NCBI GenBank assembly: GCA_944392835.1
Contig: CALXYB010000008.1
Location: 4,821-68,820 of the forward strand
Source of the DNA: an uncultured Alphaproteobacteria bacterium
GTDB lineage: Bacteria; Pseudomonadota; Alphaproteobacteria; RF32; CAG-239
DNA: 64,000 nucleotides
Reading direction: 5' to 3'
Shown: piece by piece, positions 1,665-14,916 of the stretch
How the letters are laid out: every line of letters starts with the position of its first letter
Position numbering within the stretch: the first letter of the stretch is position 1
Position numbers and translations under genes: made by a program
The notes under the pieces: generated by a model
What the model was told of the DNA's origin: nothing
Database searches by the model: none
The model's input: the letters and a program-made list of their open reading frames with translations, nothing else

Positions 1665-3518
1665 TTAGTTTACTGTTAAAGCTGGTTTATCTAATGTAGC
1701 CTCACACCAACATTTATAGTTCGTGGTGCAACTTACTCCCGGAGGACAACAACATTTCATACCATTACAATATGTTGTCCTATTAGGAGATGTACAAATG
1801 GATCCTGAACCGCCTCCACTAGGTTTAAGTTTACATTTATACTTGGTTGTTCCACAAGCTGTACAACTATCTAATATACCATAAGTACATCTTACGAGAT
1901 TGTAGCCAGGACATTCGGTTGAGTAAGAACAACTTTTACATGCCGTACATTTACCGCATGAGTTTGTAGTAGCACAACCGTACGGACATACCTTAGGTGT
2001 TACACTACAATCCGGGTTATCCTTACAAGCCGTACACTTATTGCAAGAGTTTGTCGTCTTACATCCATATTGACAGGTTAATGATGTCGCACTGCAATCC
2101 GGATTAGACTTACAAGCCGTACATTTACCACAAGAGTTGGTAGACGCACAACCATAATCACAGGATTTTGAGCTTACATTACAATCAGGGTTACCTTTAC
2201 AACCAGTACATTTACCGCAGGAATTGTATGTTGCACAACCATAATCGCAGGATTTTGAGCTTACACTACAATCTGGATTAGACTTACAAGATGTACATTT
2301 GCTACAGCTATTGTAGGAGGCACAACCATATTCGCAGCTTAATGATGTTGCATCACAATCTGGGTTGCCTGTTGCTGTTTGGCATTTGCTCGGACAGTCA
2401 GACCACCATTTTGAGCAACCATACGGGTGTGATACATCAGTACGTTTGTGGCAGTTATCCGTATAGGCAATTTCACATTTACTTGAGCAATCGCTGTAGT
2501 ATTTTTTACAACCATACGGTGCGCTTACAGATGTGCGGTTACGACAGTTATCACTGTAGCAAGTTTGGCACTTGAATTCGCAGTCTGAATAAGTTGACTG
2601 GCAACCATAAGTACATTCTTTATGTGTACGGTTATCGCAATTGTTGGTTTTTGCAATTTGGCACTTACTAGCGCAGTCGGGCCAATAGGTATGGCAACCA
2701 TAGTTTGCCTGAACAGATTCACGGTTGCGGCAGTTGTCCGTGTAAGCCGTTTGACATTTGCTTGAACAGTCTGCAAAATAAGCGACACAACCATAAGGCG
2801 TGCTTACGGCCGTACGATTACGACAGTTATCCGTATAAGCTTTTTTACAAACGGAGTTACATGGTGCCGGATAATATTCCTCACATCCATAAGCTCCGGC
2901 TGAAACACCTTTCGGACATGTACATTGTGAATATTTACCGCCACAGCTTGCACCGCTCGGTGAACGAGGTGATGTACAGTTTGATGTTGTGTACATATAT
3001 TCGCTCTTACAAGCGCAAGATTGATATTTGCCACCGCAACTAGCACCTTGTCCAACTTGGTTTGATGCACAAGACACAAGGTTAGGGTCGCATTTACAAG
3101 AAGCATATTGACCGCCGCAACTTTCACCAACGCCAACTTGTCCGGCCGGACAGGTTATGAGGTTTGTGGCACACTTGCAACGAGAGATGTAAGATTTGTT
3201 GTAAGGACAGTAACCTTCAGGAACTTGAACAGAGTTACAGTTATTAGCAATAAAGCCCTCATTTTTACATTGAGCGGCTGTATCCATGGTATAATCTTCA
3301 TCACCCTGACCATAGCCTGCGCTGTCATTACAATCGCCAACGCCCAAAAAGCAAACACCTGCAACTTTGTAGGCGTTTTCTATCTTAGCGAGTTCAAATG
3401 CGGGGGCTAAATTTGTCTTATCGGCCGTGATTTCTGAAATGGCTGAGGCCATTCCCTTGGGAGGAAATAAACACATTCCCACCAATAACGAGATTAAAAA
3501 CGCAGATTTCTTCTTCAT
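1665..3518 (-). CDS. secreted cysteine-rich tandem-repeat protein
   Basis: Signal peptide MKKKSAFLISLLVGMCLF follows RBS GAGGTG; the ORF as given is extended upstream. At least 5 copies of a 29-aa repeat NPDCxxxSxSCxYGCAxxNSCxKCTxCK. About 6 copies of a ~33-aa repeat AYTDNCRNRTxVSxPYGCxxYxxDCSSKC. Confidence 0.6.
   Translation of the reverse strand: MKKKSAFLISLLVGMCLFPPKGMASAISEITADKTNLAPAFELAKIENAYKVAGVCFLGVGDCNDSAGYGQGDEDYTMDTAAQCKNEGFIANNCNSVQVPEGYCPYNKSYISRCKCATNLITCPAGQVGVGESCGGQYASCKCDPNLVSCASNQVGQGASCGGKYQSCACKSEYMYTTSNCTSPRSPSGASCGGKYSQCTCPKGVSAGAYGCEEYYPAPCNSVCKKAYTDNCRNRTAVSTPYGCVAYFADCSSKCQTAYTDNCRNRESVQANYGCHTYWPDCASKCQIAKTNNCDNRTHKECTYGCQSTYSDCEFKCQTCYSDNCRNRTSVSAPYGCKKYYSDCSSKCEIAYTDNCHKRTDVSHPYGCSKWWSDCPSKCQTATGNPDCDATSLSCEYGCASYNSCSKCTSCKSNPDCSVSSKSCDYGCATYNSCGKCTGCKGNPDCNVSSKSCDYGCASTNSCGKCTACKSNPDCSATSLTCQYGCKTTNSCNKCTACKDNPDCSVTPKVCPYGCATTNSCGKCTACKSCSYSTECPGYNLVRCTYGILDSCTACGTTKYKCKLKPSGGGSGSICTSPNRTTYCNGMKCCCPPGVSCTTNYKCWCEATLDKPALTVN
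1800..2900. repeat. in-frame tandem nucleotide repeats (87-99 bp units) encoding the Cys-rich modules
   Basis: Recurring ggattagacttacaag... and ccgtacatttaccgca... blocks visible in sequence. Confidence 0.55.
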
Positions 3519-12711: not shown

Positions 12712-13998
12712 TTACAGCAAAAAATTTTCAACCGAAAAAAGGCACTCTCCGCCAACATCATAAACAACCGCGGAAACGGGCGGAAGCACCAATTTGCCAA
12801 AGGGTGCGTCCAGCTCAACAGCAGAGTTACCGATGTTAACGGCGATGTATAAATTATTGCGGAAAAAGCTTAAAAACTCATTACCAAGAGCTGATTTTTG
12901 ATAGGGGGCATCGGCCAGATGCGGATATTTTTCCCTTAATGCGGAGAGTTTTTTGATAACCTCCGTCAGCTTGTTATCTTTCCTTAACTCCAAGCAACGG
13001 CGCAAGGCCTTGTCGCCATCGGTTTTGCGGCCGCCAACACCCCATTCGCCGCCATAATAAAGCGACGGGATTCCGGGGATTGTATATAACATAGTATATA
13101 GTATAGGCAAATGGCGGCTGTCTTTTAAGGTTGAAACAAGACGGCTGACATCGTGGTTTTCGGCAAAATTATAAAGCAGATAACCTTTATATATGCCGGC
13201 AGCGTCTTCACCAAACTGCCTGTCCAGTGAATGGGCGATTTCAAACATATTATGCGTATTGCACGAAGACCAAAGGCCTTTCCAACATTCATAATTGGTT
13301 ACACTGTCAACCAGCTTTGGTCTGAGCCAGCGGCGATAATTGCCCTTAATCACCTCACCCATTAGCCAAAAATCTGGCTTGAGTCTTAAAGTGAAGTCCC
13401 GCAGTTCTTGCATAAAGTCCATATTCAGGCAATAAGCAACATCCAAGCGCAAGCCATCTATATCAAACTCTTTAATCCAAAATTCAACGGCTTTGAGCAG
13501 ATATGCCCGAACCTCCGGATTGTTGAGGTTTAAGGTTACCAAATCATCACAGCCTTCCCAAGCATGGTAACTGAAACCATCGTTATGAGCATTATTTGTG
13601 CCAAAATCTATGCTGAACCAATCCTTATAAGCCGAATTTTGCTTATTCTCTTTCACATCGCGGAAAGCAAAGAAATCTCGCCCGACATGGTTAAACACGC
13701 CGTCCAAAACCAACAACATTCCGGCTTGGTGAACAGAATCGGCAACAGCCTTAAAATCAGCATTATTTCCCAAACGCCTATCCAACGTTAAATAATCCGC
13801 CGTGTCATAGCCATGGGCGGAAGACTCCCATATCGGCCCTAAGAGCAATGTATTACACCCCAAGGATTTGATATGCGGCAACCAATTTGTGATTTTGTTG
13901 ATGCGTGTAATCGGCTTTGCCTGAAAGTCGTTGTGTTCTTCTACAGCGCAAAAGCCCAGCGGATAAATATGATAAATAATCTTTTGGTCGGTCTGCAT
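12712..13998 (-). CDS. glycoside hydrolase family 13 (alpha-amylase family) enzyme
   Basis: GH13 motifs GHDTADY, DGLRLDVA, GEVI and NHD. Start trimmed to ATG 13998 with GGAGGT RBS. Confidence 0.8.
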   Translation of the reverse strand: MQTDQKIIYHIYPLGFCAVEEHNDFQAKPITRINKITNWLPHIKSLGCNTLLLGPIWESSAHGYDTADYLTLDRRLGNNADFKAVADSVHQAGMLLVLDGVFNHVGRDFFAFRDVKENKQNSAYKDWFSIDFGTNNAHNDGFSYHAWEGCDDLVTLNLNNPEVRAYLLKAVEFWIKEFDIDGLRLDVAYCLNMDFMQELRDFTLRLKPDFWLMGEVIKGNYRRWLRPKLVDSVTNYECWKGLWSSCNTHNMFEIAHSLDRQFGEDAAGIYKGYLLYNFAENHDVSRLVSTLKDSRHLPILYTMLYTIPGIPSLYYGGEWGVGGRKTDGDKALRRCLELRKDNKLTEVIKKLSALREKYPHLADAPYQKSALGNEFLSFFRNNLYIAVNIGNSAVELDAPFGKLVLPPVSAVVYDVGGECLFSVENFLL

Positions 13999-14130
13999 GG
14001 CACCTCCGGCGTTATAAGATATAACATTAAAGTTTTTAGGCAAGCATTTTTTATTTGACAATATACCCTCATAGGGTATAATGAAAGCACCTTTTAAGAG
14101 GTTTTAATTTTAATTTTTGGAGAATAAACA

Positions 14131-14292
14131 ATGGCTTGTAATAATCCTAAATGTAAGAATCCGAACTGCACCTGCGGCGATAACTGCAAGTGTGATGAAA
14201 ACCACCAATGCGGTGAAGGCAAAGAATGCTGCAAAGATAATAAAAAAGAGAAAAAGTGCGGCGAAAAGAAATGCTGCTGCCACAAAAAGTGA
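14131..14292 (+). CDS. small Cys-rich metallothionein-like metal-binding protein (53 aa, not in ORF track)
   Basis: ATG 14131 preceded by GGAGA RBS. MACNNPKCKNPNCTCGDNCKCDENHQCGEGKECCKDNKKEKKCGEKKCCCHKK has 15 Cys in CxC/CC/CxxC patterns. Lies immediately upstream of a CsoR-family gene. Confidence 0.6.
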   Translation: MACNNPKCKNPNCTCGDNCKCDENHQCGEGKECCKDNKKEKKCGEKKCCCHKK

Positions 14293-14301
14293 GTTAAATT
14301 T

Positions 14302-14583
14302 ATGAGCGATACAGCCCATCATCCTTGCCATAAGCAAGAGCTTCCACGACTAAACCGGATTATTGGGCAGCTTGAGGGAATCAAAAAAATGATTGAGGAG
14401 CAGCGCTATTGCCCCGATATTTTGATTCAGCTTCGGGCAACGCGTTCGGCAATCCGCGCGGTGGAAAGTAATATATTAAAAACTCATTTGCAATCTTGCG
14501 TGGCGCAGTCTTTTGCTTCGCCCGAGGACCGAGACCAAAAACTCAGTGAGCTCAAAGAGCTTTTTGACCGCTTTGAAAGTTAA
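14302..14583 (+). CDS. CsoR/RcnR-family metal-sensing transcriptional repressor
   Basis: Four-helix-bundle family signature with C37...H62-x3-C66 (CsoR-type Cu(I) ligands). N-terminal AHHPCH. Confidence 0.75.
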   Translation: MSDTAHHPCHKQELPRLNRIIGQLEGIKKMIEEQRYCPDILIQLRATRSAIRAVESNILKTHLQSCVAQSFASPEDRDQKLSELKELFDRFES

Positions 14584-14587
14584 CAAA

Positions 14588-14618
14588 AAAAGAACCTCCG
14601 TTAAGAGGTTCTTTTTTT
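14588..14618. terminator. bidirectional rho-independent terminator
   Basis: aagaacctccgttaagaggttctt hairpin flanked by A-run and T-run. Confidence 0.6.
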
Positions 14619-14623
14619 TATCT

Positions 14624-14851
14624 TTATCTTACGGCATTGGCGTTGGTATCAAAATTTTTAACATTAGCATCGGTAGCAAAGTTGACCGTGTTGGTGATAG
14701 TGTGGTCAACAGAGTCTTTCAAATAGTTTTCATAAACATACATTCCACCATAACCCAAAGCTGCCAAAAGAATGATGTAAAAAATCGCTTTCATTTTTCT
14801 CTCCTTTGCTATGTTTTTTGTCAGCTTAGAATATTTATGAAAGGAATGCAA
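14624..14851 (-). CDS. small membrane-anchored hypothetical protein
   Basis: Internal MKAIFYIILLAALGYGG hydrophobic segment. True start uncertain. Confidence 0.3.
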   Translation of the reverse strand: MHSFHKYSKLTKNIAKERKMKAIFYIILLAALGYGGMYVYENYLKDSVDHTITNTVNFATDANVKNFDTNANAVR

Positions 14852-14916
14852 GCAAAAGAAAACGCCCGATGGAGATTGTCCGTGGGGCGTTTTGTTTTTT
14901 TTAGTTTCCGGCTTTC

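What the first reader, a model, noticed from the sequence alone, without database searches (positions are those of the whole stretch)
14131..14583. Unannotated 53-aa metallothionein-like Cys-rich gene immediately upstream of a CsoR-family sensor
The ORF is below the 60-aa cut-off of the supplied track but has a clean RBS and start. It has 28% Cys, arranged as CxC, CC, CCC and CxxC. The two opposite-strand ORFs listed across this locus appear spurious. The 10-nt spacing to the CsoR-like gene (C-H-C ligand set) suggests a metal-inducible sequestration/sensor pair, probably for copper. The sequence does not resemble SmtA/BmtA-type bacterial metallothioneins.
Basis: seen in the sequence. Interest (0 to 1): 0.6.

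Follow-up and report, generated by a model that had tools for sequence, protein, structure and literature searches.

The report
Hidden metallothionein gene with copper-type repressor
A real but routinely missed 53-residue, cysteine-packed protein gene sits in a two-gene operon with a copper-type (CsoR) repressor that blocks the operon's own promoter, and it founds a previously unnamed metallothionein-like family in uncultured gut Alphaproteobacteria.

Summary
The ORF at 14131-14292 (+) is real and under purifying selection. It encodes 53 aa with 13 Cys (24.5%, not 28%), 13 Lys and no aromatic or aliphatic residues. It has CxC, CC and CCC motifs but no CxxC. Nine nt downstream lies a 93-aa CsoR-family repressor with Tyr36-Cys37/His62/Cys66/Glu83.

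A perfect TTGACA-16-TATAAT promoter carries a perfect CsoR type-2 operator (ATACCCT-CAT-AGGGTAT) across its spacer and -10. A terminator follows csoR.

Homologues occur in 37 species-level genomes and 49 metagenome contigs, where labelled all uncultured (mostly gut) Alphaproteobacteria/"proteobacteria". They share the module CxNPKCKNPxCTCGDxCxCDExHQC, which is tripled in rabbit MAGs. About half are followed by csoR, and the operator tracks csoR (18/19 vs 2/18 loci).

No Pfam, NCBIfam, PDB or literature match exists, and gene callers usually miss the ORF.

Best reading: a self-repressed sensor-plus-sponge cassette, probably for Cu(I). It is analogous to RicR-MymT of M. tuberculosis but uses a new protein family.

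Caveat: the rabbit-MAG operons include a ZitB-like CDF exporter, and the regulator's best PDB sequence match is the nickel sensor InrS. A divalent metal therefore remains possible. Nothing was tested biochemically.

The parts
14055..14060 (+). -35 hexamer TTGACA
   Evidence: Promoter scan gives 12/12 consensus with a 16-nt spacer. TTGAC[AT] is conserved at the same place in the csoR-linked homologous loci.
14063..14079 (.). CsoR type-2 operator ATACCCT-CAT-AGGGTAT (core TACCC-N5-GGGTA at 14064-14078). It fills the promoter spacer and overlaps the -10.
   Evidence: It is a perfect 7-bp inverted repeat and the only match in the 64-kb window. A box is present in 18/19 csoR-linked loci versus 2/18 csoR-less loci, Fisher p = 2e-7. 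It matches the Streptomyces CsoR consensus, the TAC-X9-GTA rule (PMC3902906) and the RicR box TACCCCGCTGGGTA (PMC3944814).
14077..14082 (+). -10 hexamer TATAAT, sharing bases with the right operator arm
14089..14102 (.). Weak inverted repeat ACCT-N6-AGGT, probably a decayed second operator (inference)
   Evidence: It lies about -40 from the ATG. Relatives carry an intact second box at that position, for example L046 TACCCTATAAGGGTA and L011 TACCCCAAGAGGGTA.
14119..14122 (+). Shine-Dalgarno GGAG, 8 nt before the start codon
   Evidence: GGAG/AGGAG is conserved upstream in all homologues.
14131..14292 (+). Gene for the 53-aa metallothionein-like protein (13 Cys, 2 His, 13 Lys; 5.9 kDa; no signal peptide)
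   Evidence: Homologues. Codon-position selection signature. No known family matches.
14302..14583 (+). csoR-type repressor gene, 93 aa (RLNR DNA-binding motif; Tyr36-Cys37, His62, Cys66, Glu83)
   Evidence: PF02583 E 2e-26. The best NCBIfam model is RicR, below its cut-off. PDB sequence matches are InrS, Geobacillus CsoR and S. lividans CsoR. The ligand residues are invariant in 20/20 orthologues.
14585..14618 (.). Bidirectional intrinsic terminator that closes the two-gene unit
   Evidence: A 14-15 bp stem flanked by A7 and T7 runs, starting 2 nt after the csoR stop codon. Only sub-threshold Rfam hits, driven by the hairpin.

Best explanation
Region 14055-14618 is a self-contained, autoregulated two-gene operon of the form promoter/operator, metallothionein-like gene, csoR, terminator. 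At low metal, the CsoR tetramer(s) sit on ATACCCT-CAT-AGGGTAT. This site occupies the spacer and the -10 of a consensus sigma-70 promoter, so RNA polymerase is excluded. When cytosolic Cu(I) rises it is bound by Cys37, His62' and Cys66' of CsoR, with Tyr36 and Glu83 forming the allosteric second shell. CsoR then leaves the DNA and both genes are transcribed, probably with translational coupling across the 9-nt gap. The 53-aa Cys/Lys-rich product folds around Cu(I)-thiolate clusters; 13 Cys and 2 His suggest roughly 6-8 Cu(I), which is an inference. It thereby buffers the metal in the cytoplasm. As free Cu(I) falls, newly made apo-CsoR re-represses, giving negative feedback. Shown here: the ORF is a conserved, selected coding gene; the regulator carries the full CsoR Cu(I) signature; the operator is conserved and co-varies with csoR presence. 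Inferred: metal binding by the small protein, the identity of the metal, the stoichiometry, and co-transcription.
For: - **Coding and selected.** Homologues are found in 37 species genomes and 49 metagenome contigs. Variable sites by codon position are 6/5/24, and there are 6121 synonymous versus 1876 non-synonymous codon differences. All differences from L009/L010 are synonymous.
- **Metallothionein hallmarks.** The protein is 5.9 kDa and 24.5% Cys, with CxC/CC/CCC motifs, no aromatic or aliphatic residues and no signal peptide. The C-terminal half varies in length and sequence but always keeps Cys clusters. The 7-Cys/1-His N-module is tripled in tandem in L044/L045. The AF2 model has no regular secondary structure and pLDDT 60.
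- **Regulator.** PF02583. Y-C/H/C/E and RLXR are invariant. x-C-H-C defines the Cu(I)-sensor clusters (PMC8643695). The Tyr35/Glu81 network couples Cu(I) binding to DNA release (PMC7055735).
- **Operator.** It sits inside a 12/12 promoter and matches the CsoR type-2 consensus and the RicR box. Box presence tracks csoR linkage at 18/19 versus 2/18 loci, p = 2e-7.
- **Gene linkage.** csoR lies directly downstream in 17 of 37 species loci, and about 1 kb downstream in 2 more. It is downstream in about 43 of 49 metagenome loci (many of these carry near-identical copies), and an MT-like ORF lies upstream of csoR in 5/5 csoR-anchored look-ups.
- **Precedent.** MymT, a 4.9-kDa, initially non-annotated Cu metallothionein, is repressed by the CsoR paralogue RicR.
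- **Weak extra support.** A distant two-repeat MT-like ORF in L095 sits about 200 nt upstream of a CopA-like ATPase.
Against: - No biochemical or expression data exist, and the organism is uncultured.
- Sequence alone cannot fix metal selectivity in this family (stated in PMC7055735).
- The regulator's best PDB sequence match is the Ni(II) sensor InrS. An invariant N-terminal His (His10) was aligned by phmmer with InrS His21, the fourth Ni ligand, although only via a 5-residue gap.
- In the rabbit-MAG loci L044/L045, a ZitB-like CDF (HxxxD/HxxxD, His8 tail) lies between the MT gene and csoR. CDFs export divalent cations.
- No CopA or CopZ lies near csoR in the window or in any Alphaproteobacterial locus, whereas most Cu-CsoRs are next to copA/copZ.
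- About half of the species carry the MT gene without csoR or the operator, so the protein is not tied to CsoR control.
Confidence: 0.6

Rival explanations
1. The architecture is the same (repressor-controlled metallothionein-like sponge), but the inducer and cargo is a divalent metal, Ni(II)/Co(II) or Zn(II)/Cd(II). The regulator would then act as an InrS-like H-C-H-C sensor rather than a Cu(I) sensor.
For: InrS is the top PDB sequence match (7.7e-16), with query His10 aligned to InrS His21. An N-terminal HPxH motif is conserved, and His10 is invariant in 20/20. The rabbit-MAG operons are MT(x3), ZitB-like CDF, csoR. Many family members have His-rich C-terminal halves (CHC, EHC), as in Zn-binding SmtA-type proteins. 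InrS has all three CsoR Cu ligands yet senses Ni.
Against: Tyr36 precedes Cys37 as in Cu-CsoRs, whereas InrS has Pro there. S. lividans Cu-CsoR also has an N-terminal HGYHKQ, so the His is not diagnostic. The operator is the interrupted type-2 CsoR/RicR kind, not the single C6-tract of DmeR/RcnR. DmeR and RcnR have His at position Z, whereas this protein has Cys. Metallothioneins are not known Ni/Co buffers (general knowledge). The CDF occurs in only 2 of 37 species.
Confidence: 0.22
2. The small protein is a thiol, redox or reactive-sulfur buffer, and the regulator is a CstR-like persulfide or oxidant sensor. The cassette would then answer sulfide or oxidative stress in the gut, not metal.
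For: CsoR-family dithiol sensors of persulfide exist (PMC8643695). A remote 39-aa relative (L101) lies between a persulfide-dioxygenase-like MBL gene and cysE/cysK-like genes.
Against: CstRs are x-C-x-C, whereas His62 is invariant here. No sqr, rhodanese or cst genes lie nearby. The operator is of the Cu-CsoR type.
Confidence: 0.06
3. The ORF encodes a precursor of a secreted or modified Cys-rich peptide (RiPP or antimicrobial peptide), or a leader peptide that merely tunes csoR translation.
For: It is small, Cys- and Lys-rich, cationic (pI 8.6) and immediately upstream of a regulator.
Against: There is no signal peptide and no leader/core split. No radical-SAM enzyme, cyclase, protease or ABC exporter appears in the window or in 86 homologous loci, and the only recurrent partners are csoR and a small acidic protein. 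The gene stands alone without csoR in about half of the species, so it is not a csoR leader.
Confidence: 0.03
4. The ORF is not a gene. It is a chance open frame in the csoR 5' leader, or one of the antisense ORFs is the real gene.
For: It is short, below usual cut-offs and absent from protein catalogues. Two antisense ORFs of 63 and 75 aa overlap it.
Against: The third-position variation pattern, the invariant Cys columns, the conserved start and RBS, and tandem triplication of the module in frame. The antisense frames are open only because the sense frame lacks TTA/CTA/TCA codons. They translate to Phe/Ala low-complexity strings, and in most homologues one or more of the antisense frames contain stops.
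Confidence: 0.01

Closest known systems
MymT metallothionein under RicR (CsoR paralogue) in Mycobacterium tuberculosis
   Same: MymT is a ~5-kDa Cys-rich cytosolic protein that was itself first a non-annotated ORF. It is repressed by a CsoR-family Cu(I) sensor through a TACCC...GGGTA palindrome in the promoter. The logic is sequestration rather than efflux.
   Different: mymT is a separate locus and not co-transcribed with ricR, whereas here the sponge and the sensor form one bicistronic, self-repressed unit. The host is a low-GC gut alphaproteobacterium, not an actinomycete. The protein here is built from a repeatable 7-Cys/1-His module.
SmtA/BmtA (Pfam PF02069) with the SmtB repressor of cyanobacteria and pseudomonads
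   Same: A bacterial metallothionein whose gene lies next to its own metal-sensing repressor, giving an inducible cytosolic metal buffer.
   Different: SmtA has a zinc-finger-like fold with His and aromatic residues and binds Zn/Cd. Its regulator is ArsR/SmtB family. PF02069 does not match the 53-mer or its relatives even at E <= 10.
Canonical csoR-copZ-copA operons (B. subtilis, S. lividans, Listeria and others)
   Same: The same regulator family, the same x-C-H-C/Tyr/Glu signature, the same RLXR motif and the same type-2 operator (ATATACCCCTNAGGGGTATAT, TAC-X9-GTA), with autoregulation.
   Different: The cargo here is a Cys-rich sponge, not a P1B ATPase plus HMA chaperone. No copA or copZ lies within the window or the Alphaproteobacterial loci.
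Eukaryotic Cu/Cd-thioneins (nematode MTL, PF05522; dipteran Mtn, PF02067; fungal Cup1-type)
   Same: Size, Cys density, C-x-C-G-D/S-x-C-x-C spacing, richness in Lys, and absence of aromatic residues.
   Different: Only sub-threshold, composition-driven scores: PF05522 at 15 and 11 bits against a cut-off of 23, and PF02067 at 7 bits. There is no evidence of common descent.
Csp1/Csp3 bacterial copper storage proteins
   Same: Cytosolic (Csp3) Cys-lined Cu(I) stores.
   Different: Csps are pre-folded four-helix bundles of over 100 aa that form tetramers. The protein here is 53 aa with no predicted helices.
InrS (Ni) and DmeR-DmeF (Ni/Co) CsoR/RcnR-family systems
   Same: InrS shares C-H-C, Glu and RLXR, and is the best PDB sequence match. 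DmeRF shows that an alphaproteobacterial CsoR/RcnR-family repressor can control a CDF, as in L044/L045.
   Different: InrS has Pro, not Tyr, before the first Cys. DmeR is H-C-H-H with a single C6-tract operator. The L044 CDF is ZitB-like (155 bits) rather than DmeF-like (85 bits).

Membership tests
Metallothionein (operational superfamily definition) | Low molecular mass (<10 kDa) and very high Cys content (about 15-30%) | tested here: met
   53 aa, 5.9 kDa, 13 Cys = 24.5%.
Metallothionein (operational superfamily definition) | Cys in CxC / CC / CxxC-type clusters, with few or no aromatic residues | tested here: met
   CxC x3, CC and CCC are present. There are no F/W/Y and no L/I/V residues, and no CxxC. 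The Cys columns are invariant across homologues.
Metallothionein (operational superfamily definition) | Binds several metal ions in metal-thiolate clusters | not testable with these tools
   Needs ESI-MS, ICP-MS or spectroscopy on the purified protein. The AF2 model without metal is unstructured (pLDDT 60), which is compatible but not evidence.
Metallothionein (operational superfamily definition) | Expression induced by the metal | tested here: inconclusive
   A metal-sensor operator overlaps the promoter, which predicts induction. No expression data are available.
SmtA/BmtA bacterial metallothionein (PF02069) | Match to the family profile (zinc-finger-like core) | tested here: not met
   No hit at E <= 1 for the 53-mer or at E <= 10 for five relatives.
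MymT (mycobacterial metallothionein) | Sequence homology to MymT | not tested
   The MymT sequence was not obtainable. The NCBIfam scan gave no family at E <= 1, but whether that library holds a MymT model is not known. Only the functional and regulatory analogy is claimed.
CsoR/RcnR superfamily (PF02583) | Profile match above the gathering score | tested here: met
   92.6 bits against a cut-off of 22.8.
Cu(I)-sensing CsoR | x-C-H-C first-shell ligands | tested here: met
   Cys37, His62 and Cys66 are invariant in 20/20 orthologues. The definition comes from PMC8643695.
Cu(I)-sensing CsoR | Second-shell Tyr (before the first Cys) and Glu (helix 3) allosteric network | tested here: met
   R-Y36-C37 is invariant. 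Glu83 aligns with the InrS position that PMC7055735 equates to Mtb CsoR Glu81 (InrS Glu98).
Cu(I)-sensing CsoR | Type-2 operator: AT-rich inverted repeat flanking an interrupted G/C tract, TAC-X9-GTA | tested here: met
   14061-14081 ATATACCCTCATAGGGTATAA matches 6/6 and 6/6 of the most conserved consensus positions, and TAC-CCTCATAGG-GTA fits TAC-X9-GTA.
Cu(I)-sensing CsoR | copA/copZ in the genomic neighbourhood (typical, not obligatory) | tested here: not met
   No DKTGT or MxCxxC ORFs were found in the window or in the Alphaproteobacterial loci.
Cu(I)-sensing CsoR | Cu(I)-dependent release from DNA | not testable with these tools
   Needs EMSA or anisotropy with Cu(I).
InrS-type Ni(II) sensor | H-C-H-C: an additional N-terminal His ligand (W position) | tested here: inconclusive
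   His10 is invariant and aligned by phmmer to InrS His21, but only with a 5-residue gap (X-27 versus X-32). S. lividans Cu-CsoR has a similar HGYHKQ. Tyr replaces Pro before the Cys.
RcnR/DmeR Ni/Co sensor | H-C-H-H ligands and a type-1 single G/C-tract operator | tested here: not met
   Position Z is Cys66, not His, and the operator tract is interrupted.
CstR persulfide sensor | x-C-x-C (no His at Y) and sulfide-detoxification neighbours | tested here: not met
   His62 is invariant, and there are no sqr/cst genes nearby.
FrmR formaldehyde sensor | N-terminal Pro2 plus Cys35 (feature from general knowledge); match to the FrmR equivalog | tested here: not met
   Residue 2 is Ser. The NCBIfam FrmR score is 37.9 bits against a cut-off of 133.

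The most novel reading that the evidence does not exclude
The 25-residue module CxNPKCKNPxCTCGDxCxCDExHQC (7 Cys, 1 His) is an independently evolved, repeatable bacterial metal-cluster domain that founds a third bacterial metallothionein family. With its CsoR-family partner it forms a mobile, minimal 'sensor plus sponge' cassette that stands in for the usual CopA/CopZ partners in gut Alphaproteobacteria. In at least the rabbit-MAG lineage (MT x3, ZitB-like CDF, regulator), the CsoR-family repressor would have been retuned to a divalent thiophilic metal such as Zn(II) or Cd(II). No characterised member of this repressor family came up as a Zn(II)/Cd(II) sensor in the papers read here.
Probability: 0.15. 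Interest if true: 0.75.

Novelty: new variant of a known kind. Interest (0 to 1): 0.55.

Why it matters
Bacterial metallothioneins are rare. Reviews list essentially SmtA/BmtA and MymT (PMC7558416). Here is a further, sequence-unrelated family with a clear modular design. It is common in human and animal gut metagenomes yet almost invisible, because gene callers drop it or over-extend csoR across it. It shows that a CsoR-type sensor can be wired to sequestration alone, in one self-repressed operon. It also gives a compact two-part system (5.9-kDa sponge, 93-aa sensor, 17-bp operator) that could be tested directly in E. coli, which matters because the host is uncultured. It bears on how anaerobic gut commensals cope with dietary copper or zinc, and it offers parts for metal biosensing and bioremediation. 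The CDF-containing variant raises a concrete, testable question about metal selectivity in the CsoR family.

Tried and rejected
- **Family searches on the 53-mer and relatives.** Pfam at E up to 10 and NCBIfam gave nothing significant, only sub-threshold PF05522/PF02067.
- **PDB.** A profile search with the family alignment gave 0 hits at E <= 10.
- **Structure.** The AF2 model had mean pLDDT 60 and no secondary structure, and Foldseek against PDB gave 0 hits. Structure comparison is therefore uninformative.
- **Profile search of 1.84 billion representatives.** Only 6 hits, two of them chimeric or different proteins (P0015, P0016), so there is no wider called family.
- **Literature.** Searching the motif NPKCKNP gave nothing, and a search for new prokaryotic metallothionein families gave nothing relevant. 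The MymT paper is not held, so no direct comparison was possible.
- **Rfam on 13800-14900.** Only terminator-driven sub-threshold hits, so no riboswitch or sRNA.
- **Other regulon members.** There is a single box in the 64-kb window. Off-target boxes in related loci fall inside tRNA genes and were judged chance matches.
- **copA, copZ or CDF near the cassette.** None in the window. A CDF occurs only in L044/L045. A CopA-like gene occurs only beside a remote high-GC relative, L095.
- **MerR-type long-spacer promoters in csoR-less loci.** Considered and rejected, because the spacers are 16-17 nt.
- **DmeR, RcnR, FrmR and CstR identities for the regulator.** Rejected on ligand residues and operator type.
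Full report
**1. Observation**

The + strand at 14131-14292 encodes MACNNPKCKNPNCTCGDNCKCDENHQCGEGKECCKDNKKEKKCGEKKCCCHKK.
- It has 53 residues: 13 Cys (24.5%), 13 Lys, 2 His, and no aromatic or aliphatic residues. Mass is 5.9 kDa and pI is 8.6.
- The Cys motifs are CxC (x3), CC, CCC, CxxxC and CxxxxC.
- GGAG lies 8 nt before the ATG. An in-frame stop two codons upstream fixes the start.
- Among 625 stop-to-stop frames of at least 40 codons in the window, this is the only one above 17% Cys.
- Nine nt after its stop (not ten) begins a 93-aa ORF, 14302-14583. It matches PF02583 at 92.6 bits and carries Cys37, His62 and Cys66.

**2. It is a real gene**

A word-seeded search of 5.8 billion protein clusters found 13 relatives at 65-93% identity, all unnamed and without Pfam domains.

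A six-frame scan of one genome per species found 37 loci. All are in MAGs labelled uncultured Alphaproteobacteria or "proteobacterium", and those whose source is evident come from animal or human gut (human, deer, rabbit, mouse). L009 and L010 encode the identical 53-mer.

All loci share an N-terminal module, C-x-N-P-K-C-K-N-P-x-C-T-C-G-D-x-C-x-C-D-E-x-H-Q-C. It is followed by a tail of variable length and sequence that always retains Cys clusters.

Evidence of purifying selection:

| Measure | Result |
|---|---|
| Unique DNA versions of the 25-codon module | 36 |
| Variable sites at codon positions 1 / 2 / 3 | 6 / 5 / 24 |
| Synonymous vs non-synonymous codon differences | 6121 vs 1876 |
| Differences between the window and L009 | 4, all synonymous third-position |
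| Differences between the window and L010 | 3, all synonymous third-position |

In two rabbit-gut MAGs (L044, L045) the module occurs three times in tandem in one 108-111-aa protein. This argues that it is an autonomous unit.

The two antisense ORFs (14094-14285 and 14110-14337) are artefacts. The sense frame has no Leu or TCA-Ser codons, so the antisense frame cannot acquire stops. It reads as Phe/Ala strings, and in most homologues one or more of the antisense frames contain stops.

**3. Why it is unannotated**

- The exact 53-mer is absent from a 15-billion-sequence collection, and so is the 51-aa variant that occurs on more than 20 human-gut contigs.
- Many public csoR gene calls from this clade are 130-154 aa. 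The caller has extended csoR upstream, in another frame, across the small gene (seen directly).
- In three of four distinct csoR-anchored contexts no gene was called in the 300-450-bp gap upstream. Yet each gap contains a Cys-rich ORF, for example MAKCSNPKCKCINCTCGDNCTCDGDTCNCPPECNQPPKEEK.

**4. The transcription unit**

- A promoter scan gives a 12/12 consensus: TTGACA (14055-14060), a 16-nt spacer, and TATAAT (14077-14082).
- Inside it lies the perfect inverted repeat ATACCCT-CAT-AGGGTAT (14063-14079). Its right arm shares bases with the -10.
- TACCC-N5-GGGTA occurs only once in the 64-kb window.
- No terminator separates the two genes. A strong bidirectional hairpin (14585-14618) follows csoR immediately.
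- Rfam finds nothing real in the region.
- A weak ACCT-N6-AGGT repeat at 14089-14102 lies where relatives carry an intact second box. I read it as a decayed second operator, which is an inference.

**5. Operator and regulator identity**

The operator:
- The streptomycete CsoR type-2 consensus is ATATACCCCTNAGGGGTATAT, with positions 3-8 and 14-19 most conserved. Known CsoR sites share TAC-X9-GTA (PMC3902906).
- The window reads ATATACCCTCATAGGGTATAA. It matches 6/6 and 6/6 of those positions and fits TAC-X9-GTA.
- The M. tuberculosis RicR box is TACCCCGCTGGGTA (PMC3944814).

The protein:
- It has the RLXR helix-1 motif (R16-L-N-R19).
- It has the Cu(I) ligands Cys37, His62 and Cys66, plus the second-shell Tyr36 and Glu83. 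All are invariant in 20 orthologues.
- x-C-H-C defines the Cu(I)-sensing clusters of the superfamily (PMC8643695).
- Tyr35, His61 and Glu81 couple Cu(I) binding to DNA release in Mtb CsoR (PMC7055735).
- DmeR and RcnR (H-C-H-H, single C6-tract operator), CstR (x-C-x-C) and FrmR (Pro2; 38 bits against a cut-off of 133) do not fit.

**6. Comparative linkage**

- Of the 37 species loci, 17 have csoR directly after the small gene and 2 have it about 1 kb downstream.
- A TACCC-N5-GGGTA box (up to 1 mismatch) lies within 130 nt upstream in 18/19 csoR-linked loci and 2/18 unlinked loci, Fisher p = 2e-7. It usually overlaps the -10, and there is often a second box about 25 nt downstream.
- In the reverse direction, five csoR homologues at 65-85% identity all had an MT-like ORF and boxes upstream.
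- A metagenome scan added 49 contigs, mostly human gut. About 43 carry the MT-csoR pair. Many of these carry near-identical copies, so they are not independent cases.
- csoR-less loci use a different promoter and lack the box. The protein is thus also used outside CsoR control.
- The cassette sits in different neighbourhoods in different species, and csoR is 47% GC against 37% for the window. This suggests mobility.

**7. Mechanism**

I propose a self-repressed sensor-plus-sponge operon.
- Apo-CsoR occludes the promoter.
- Cu(I) binding releases it, and both genes are expressed.
- The Cys-rich protein sequesters the metal in thiolate clusters.
- Falling free metal restores repression.

Shown here: the gene is coding and selected, the regulator carries the CsoR signature, the operator sits in the promoter, and the operator co-varies with csoR.

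Inferred: metal binding, copper as the metal, a stoichiometry of roughly 6-8 Cu(I) for 13 Cys and 2 His, and co-transcription or translational coupling.

The AF2 model (pLDDT 60, no secondary structure) is what an apo-metallothionein would give, but it is not evidence.

**8. What keeps copper from being certain**

- The family review itself warns that sequence does not determine selectivity: InrS has all the CsoR ligands yet senses Ni(II).
- InrS is the best PDB sequence match (7.7e-16). phmmer aligned the invariant His10 with InrS His21, the fourth Ni ligand, but only through a 5-residue gap. S. lividans Cu-CsoR has a similar HGYHKQ, and InrS lacks the Tyr.
- In L044/L045 the operon is MT(x3), CDF, regulator. 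The CDF has HxxxD/HxxxD motifs and a His8 tail. It scores 155 bits on ZitB against 85 bits on DmeF, both below their cut-offs.
- No copA or copZ lies near any Alphaproteobacterial locus, unlike most Cu-CsoRs.
- In copper's favour, a remote two-repeat MT-like ORF in a 59%-GC contig (L095) lies about 200 nt upstream of a CopA-like ATPase.
- My estimates are copper about 0.6 and a divalent metal about 0.2.

**9. Comparison with known systems**

- The closest functional analogue is RicR-MymT of M. tuberculosis: a small, initially non-annotated Cu metallothionein repressed by a CsoR paralogue. There the genes are unlinked, and no homology is evident.
- SmtA/BmtA with SmtB is analogous in logic but differs in fold and regulator family, and does not match.
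- Canonical csoR-copZA shares the sensor and the operator but not the cargo.
- Similarity to eukaryotic metallothioneins is compositional only (PF05522 at 15 bits against a cut-off of 23).
- No PDB sequence match, fold match or paper was found.
- A profile search of 1.84 billion representatives returned only six proteins. This partly reflects the ORF rarely being called.

**10. Verdict**

This is a new, sequence-unrelated variant of a known kind of system: a metallothionein under a metal-sensing repressor. It forms a compact bicistronic cassette, is restricted so far to uncultured gut Alphaproteobacteria, and is systematically missed by annotation. Interest is moderate to high for bacterial metal homeostasis. 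It would be higher if the CDF-linked variant proves to be a divalent-metal CsoR-family sensor.

Noticed in passing
window 1665-3518 (-): A 617-aa protein with a signal peptide and 14.4% Cys. It has internal repeats of the type ...NPDC..S..SC.YGC....SC.KCT.CK.... It has no Pfam match. It looks like a secreted Cys-rich repeat protein of unknown function.
   Followed up: partly
L001 3671-3871 (-), L007 3636-3869 (-), and equivalents in L002-L008, L024, L026, L075, L084, L092; 0.1-2 kb upstream in L022, L027, L029, L035, L037, L041, L042: A small acidic protein (66-77 aa) with the conserved sequence ...LIDSxPERDDxCxFERxMYNFGxQxDLPDSDxAMDxxCKN. It is divergently adjacent to the MT-like gene in many csoR-less loci and nearby in several csoR-linked ones. 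It has no Pfam or NCBIfam match and is absent from the window. It may be a functional partner.
   Followed up: partly
L044 2884-4479; L045 equivalent: In the rabbit-gut MAGs the MT-like protein is three tandem copies of the 7-Cys module (108-111 aa). A ZitB-like CDF exporter with a His8 tail sits between it and the csoR-like gene.
   Followed up: partly
Public csoR gene calls P0018, P0020-P0026, P0047, P0055 and others; L022/L027/L029 around 3058-3470: Many catalogued 'CsoR' proteins of this clade are 130-154 aa. The ORF has been extended upstream, in another frame, across the MT-like gene. This is a systematic annotation error that hides the small gene.
   Followed up: yes
L048 3326-3670, L049 3326-3679, L052 3369-3716: A DUF4186 gene follows csoR by about 20 nt in the lineages with the shorter MAKC(S/N)NP... 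variants of the MT-like protein. It may be a third operon member.
   Followed up: no
L095 2512-2679 and 2890-3603 (JGI Ga0208864_1007013, 59% GC): A 55-aa two-repeat Cys-rich ORF (C[TS]NPDCTC[GE]D..C.CG..CQCGK, twice) lies about 200 nt upstream of the N-terminus of a CopA-like P1B ATPase (HMA motif GMSCASC; NCBIfam CopA 66 bits). It may be a remote or convergent relative in a high-GC organism.
   Followed up: partly
L101 830-949 (31% GC metagenome contig MDSY01122594.1): A 39-aa ORF, MACNNPKCKCTNCTYDACRCDGSMQCACQPTEASCCCNK, lies between an MBL-fold (glyoxalase II / persulfide-dioxygenase-like) gene and cysE- and cysK-like genes. This places a relative in a cysteine/sulfur context.
   Followed up: no
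L014 and L019 upstream of 3001; L014 3601 and L019 3299: In two species the MT-like gene lies directly after a tRNA gene. The only off-target CsoR-box matches fall inside tRNA-like sequence (the variable-arm region) downstream and are probably chance.
   Followed up: partly
window 14302-14583 versus the whole window: csoR is 47% GC and the MT gene 41% GC, against 36.8% for the window. The cassette also sits in unrelated neighbourhoods in different species: alpha-amylase here and in L046, and rbfA-truB, dnaB-rpmB, recX-hslO and mnmA elsewhere. This hints that the cassette moves.
   Followed up: no
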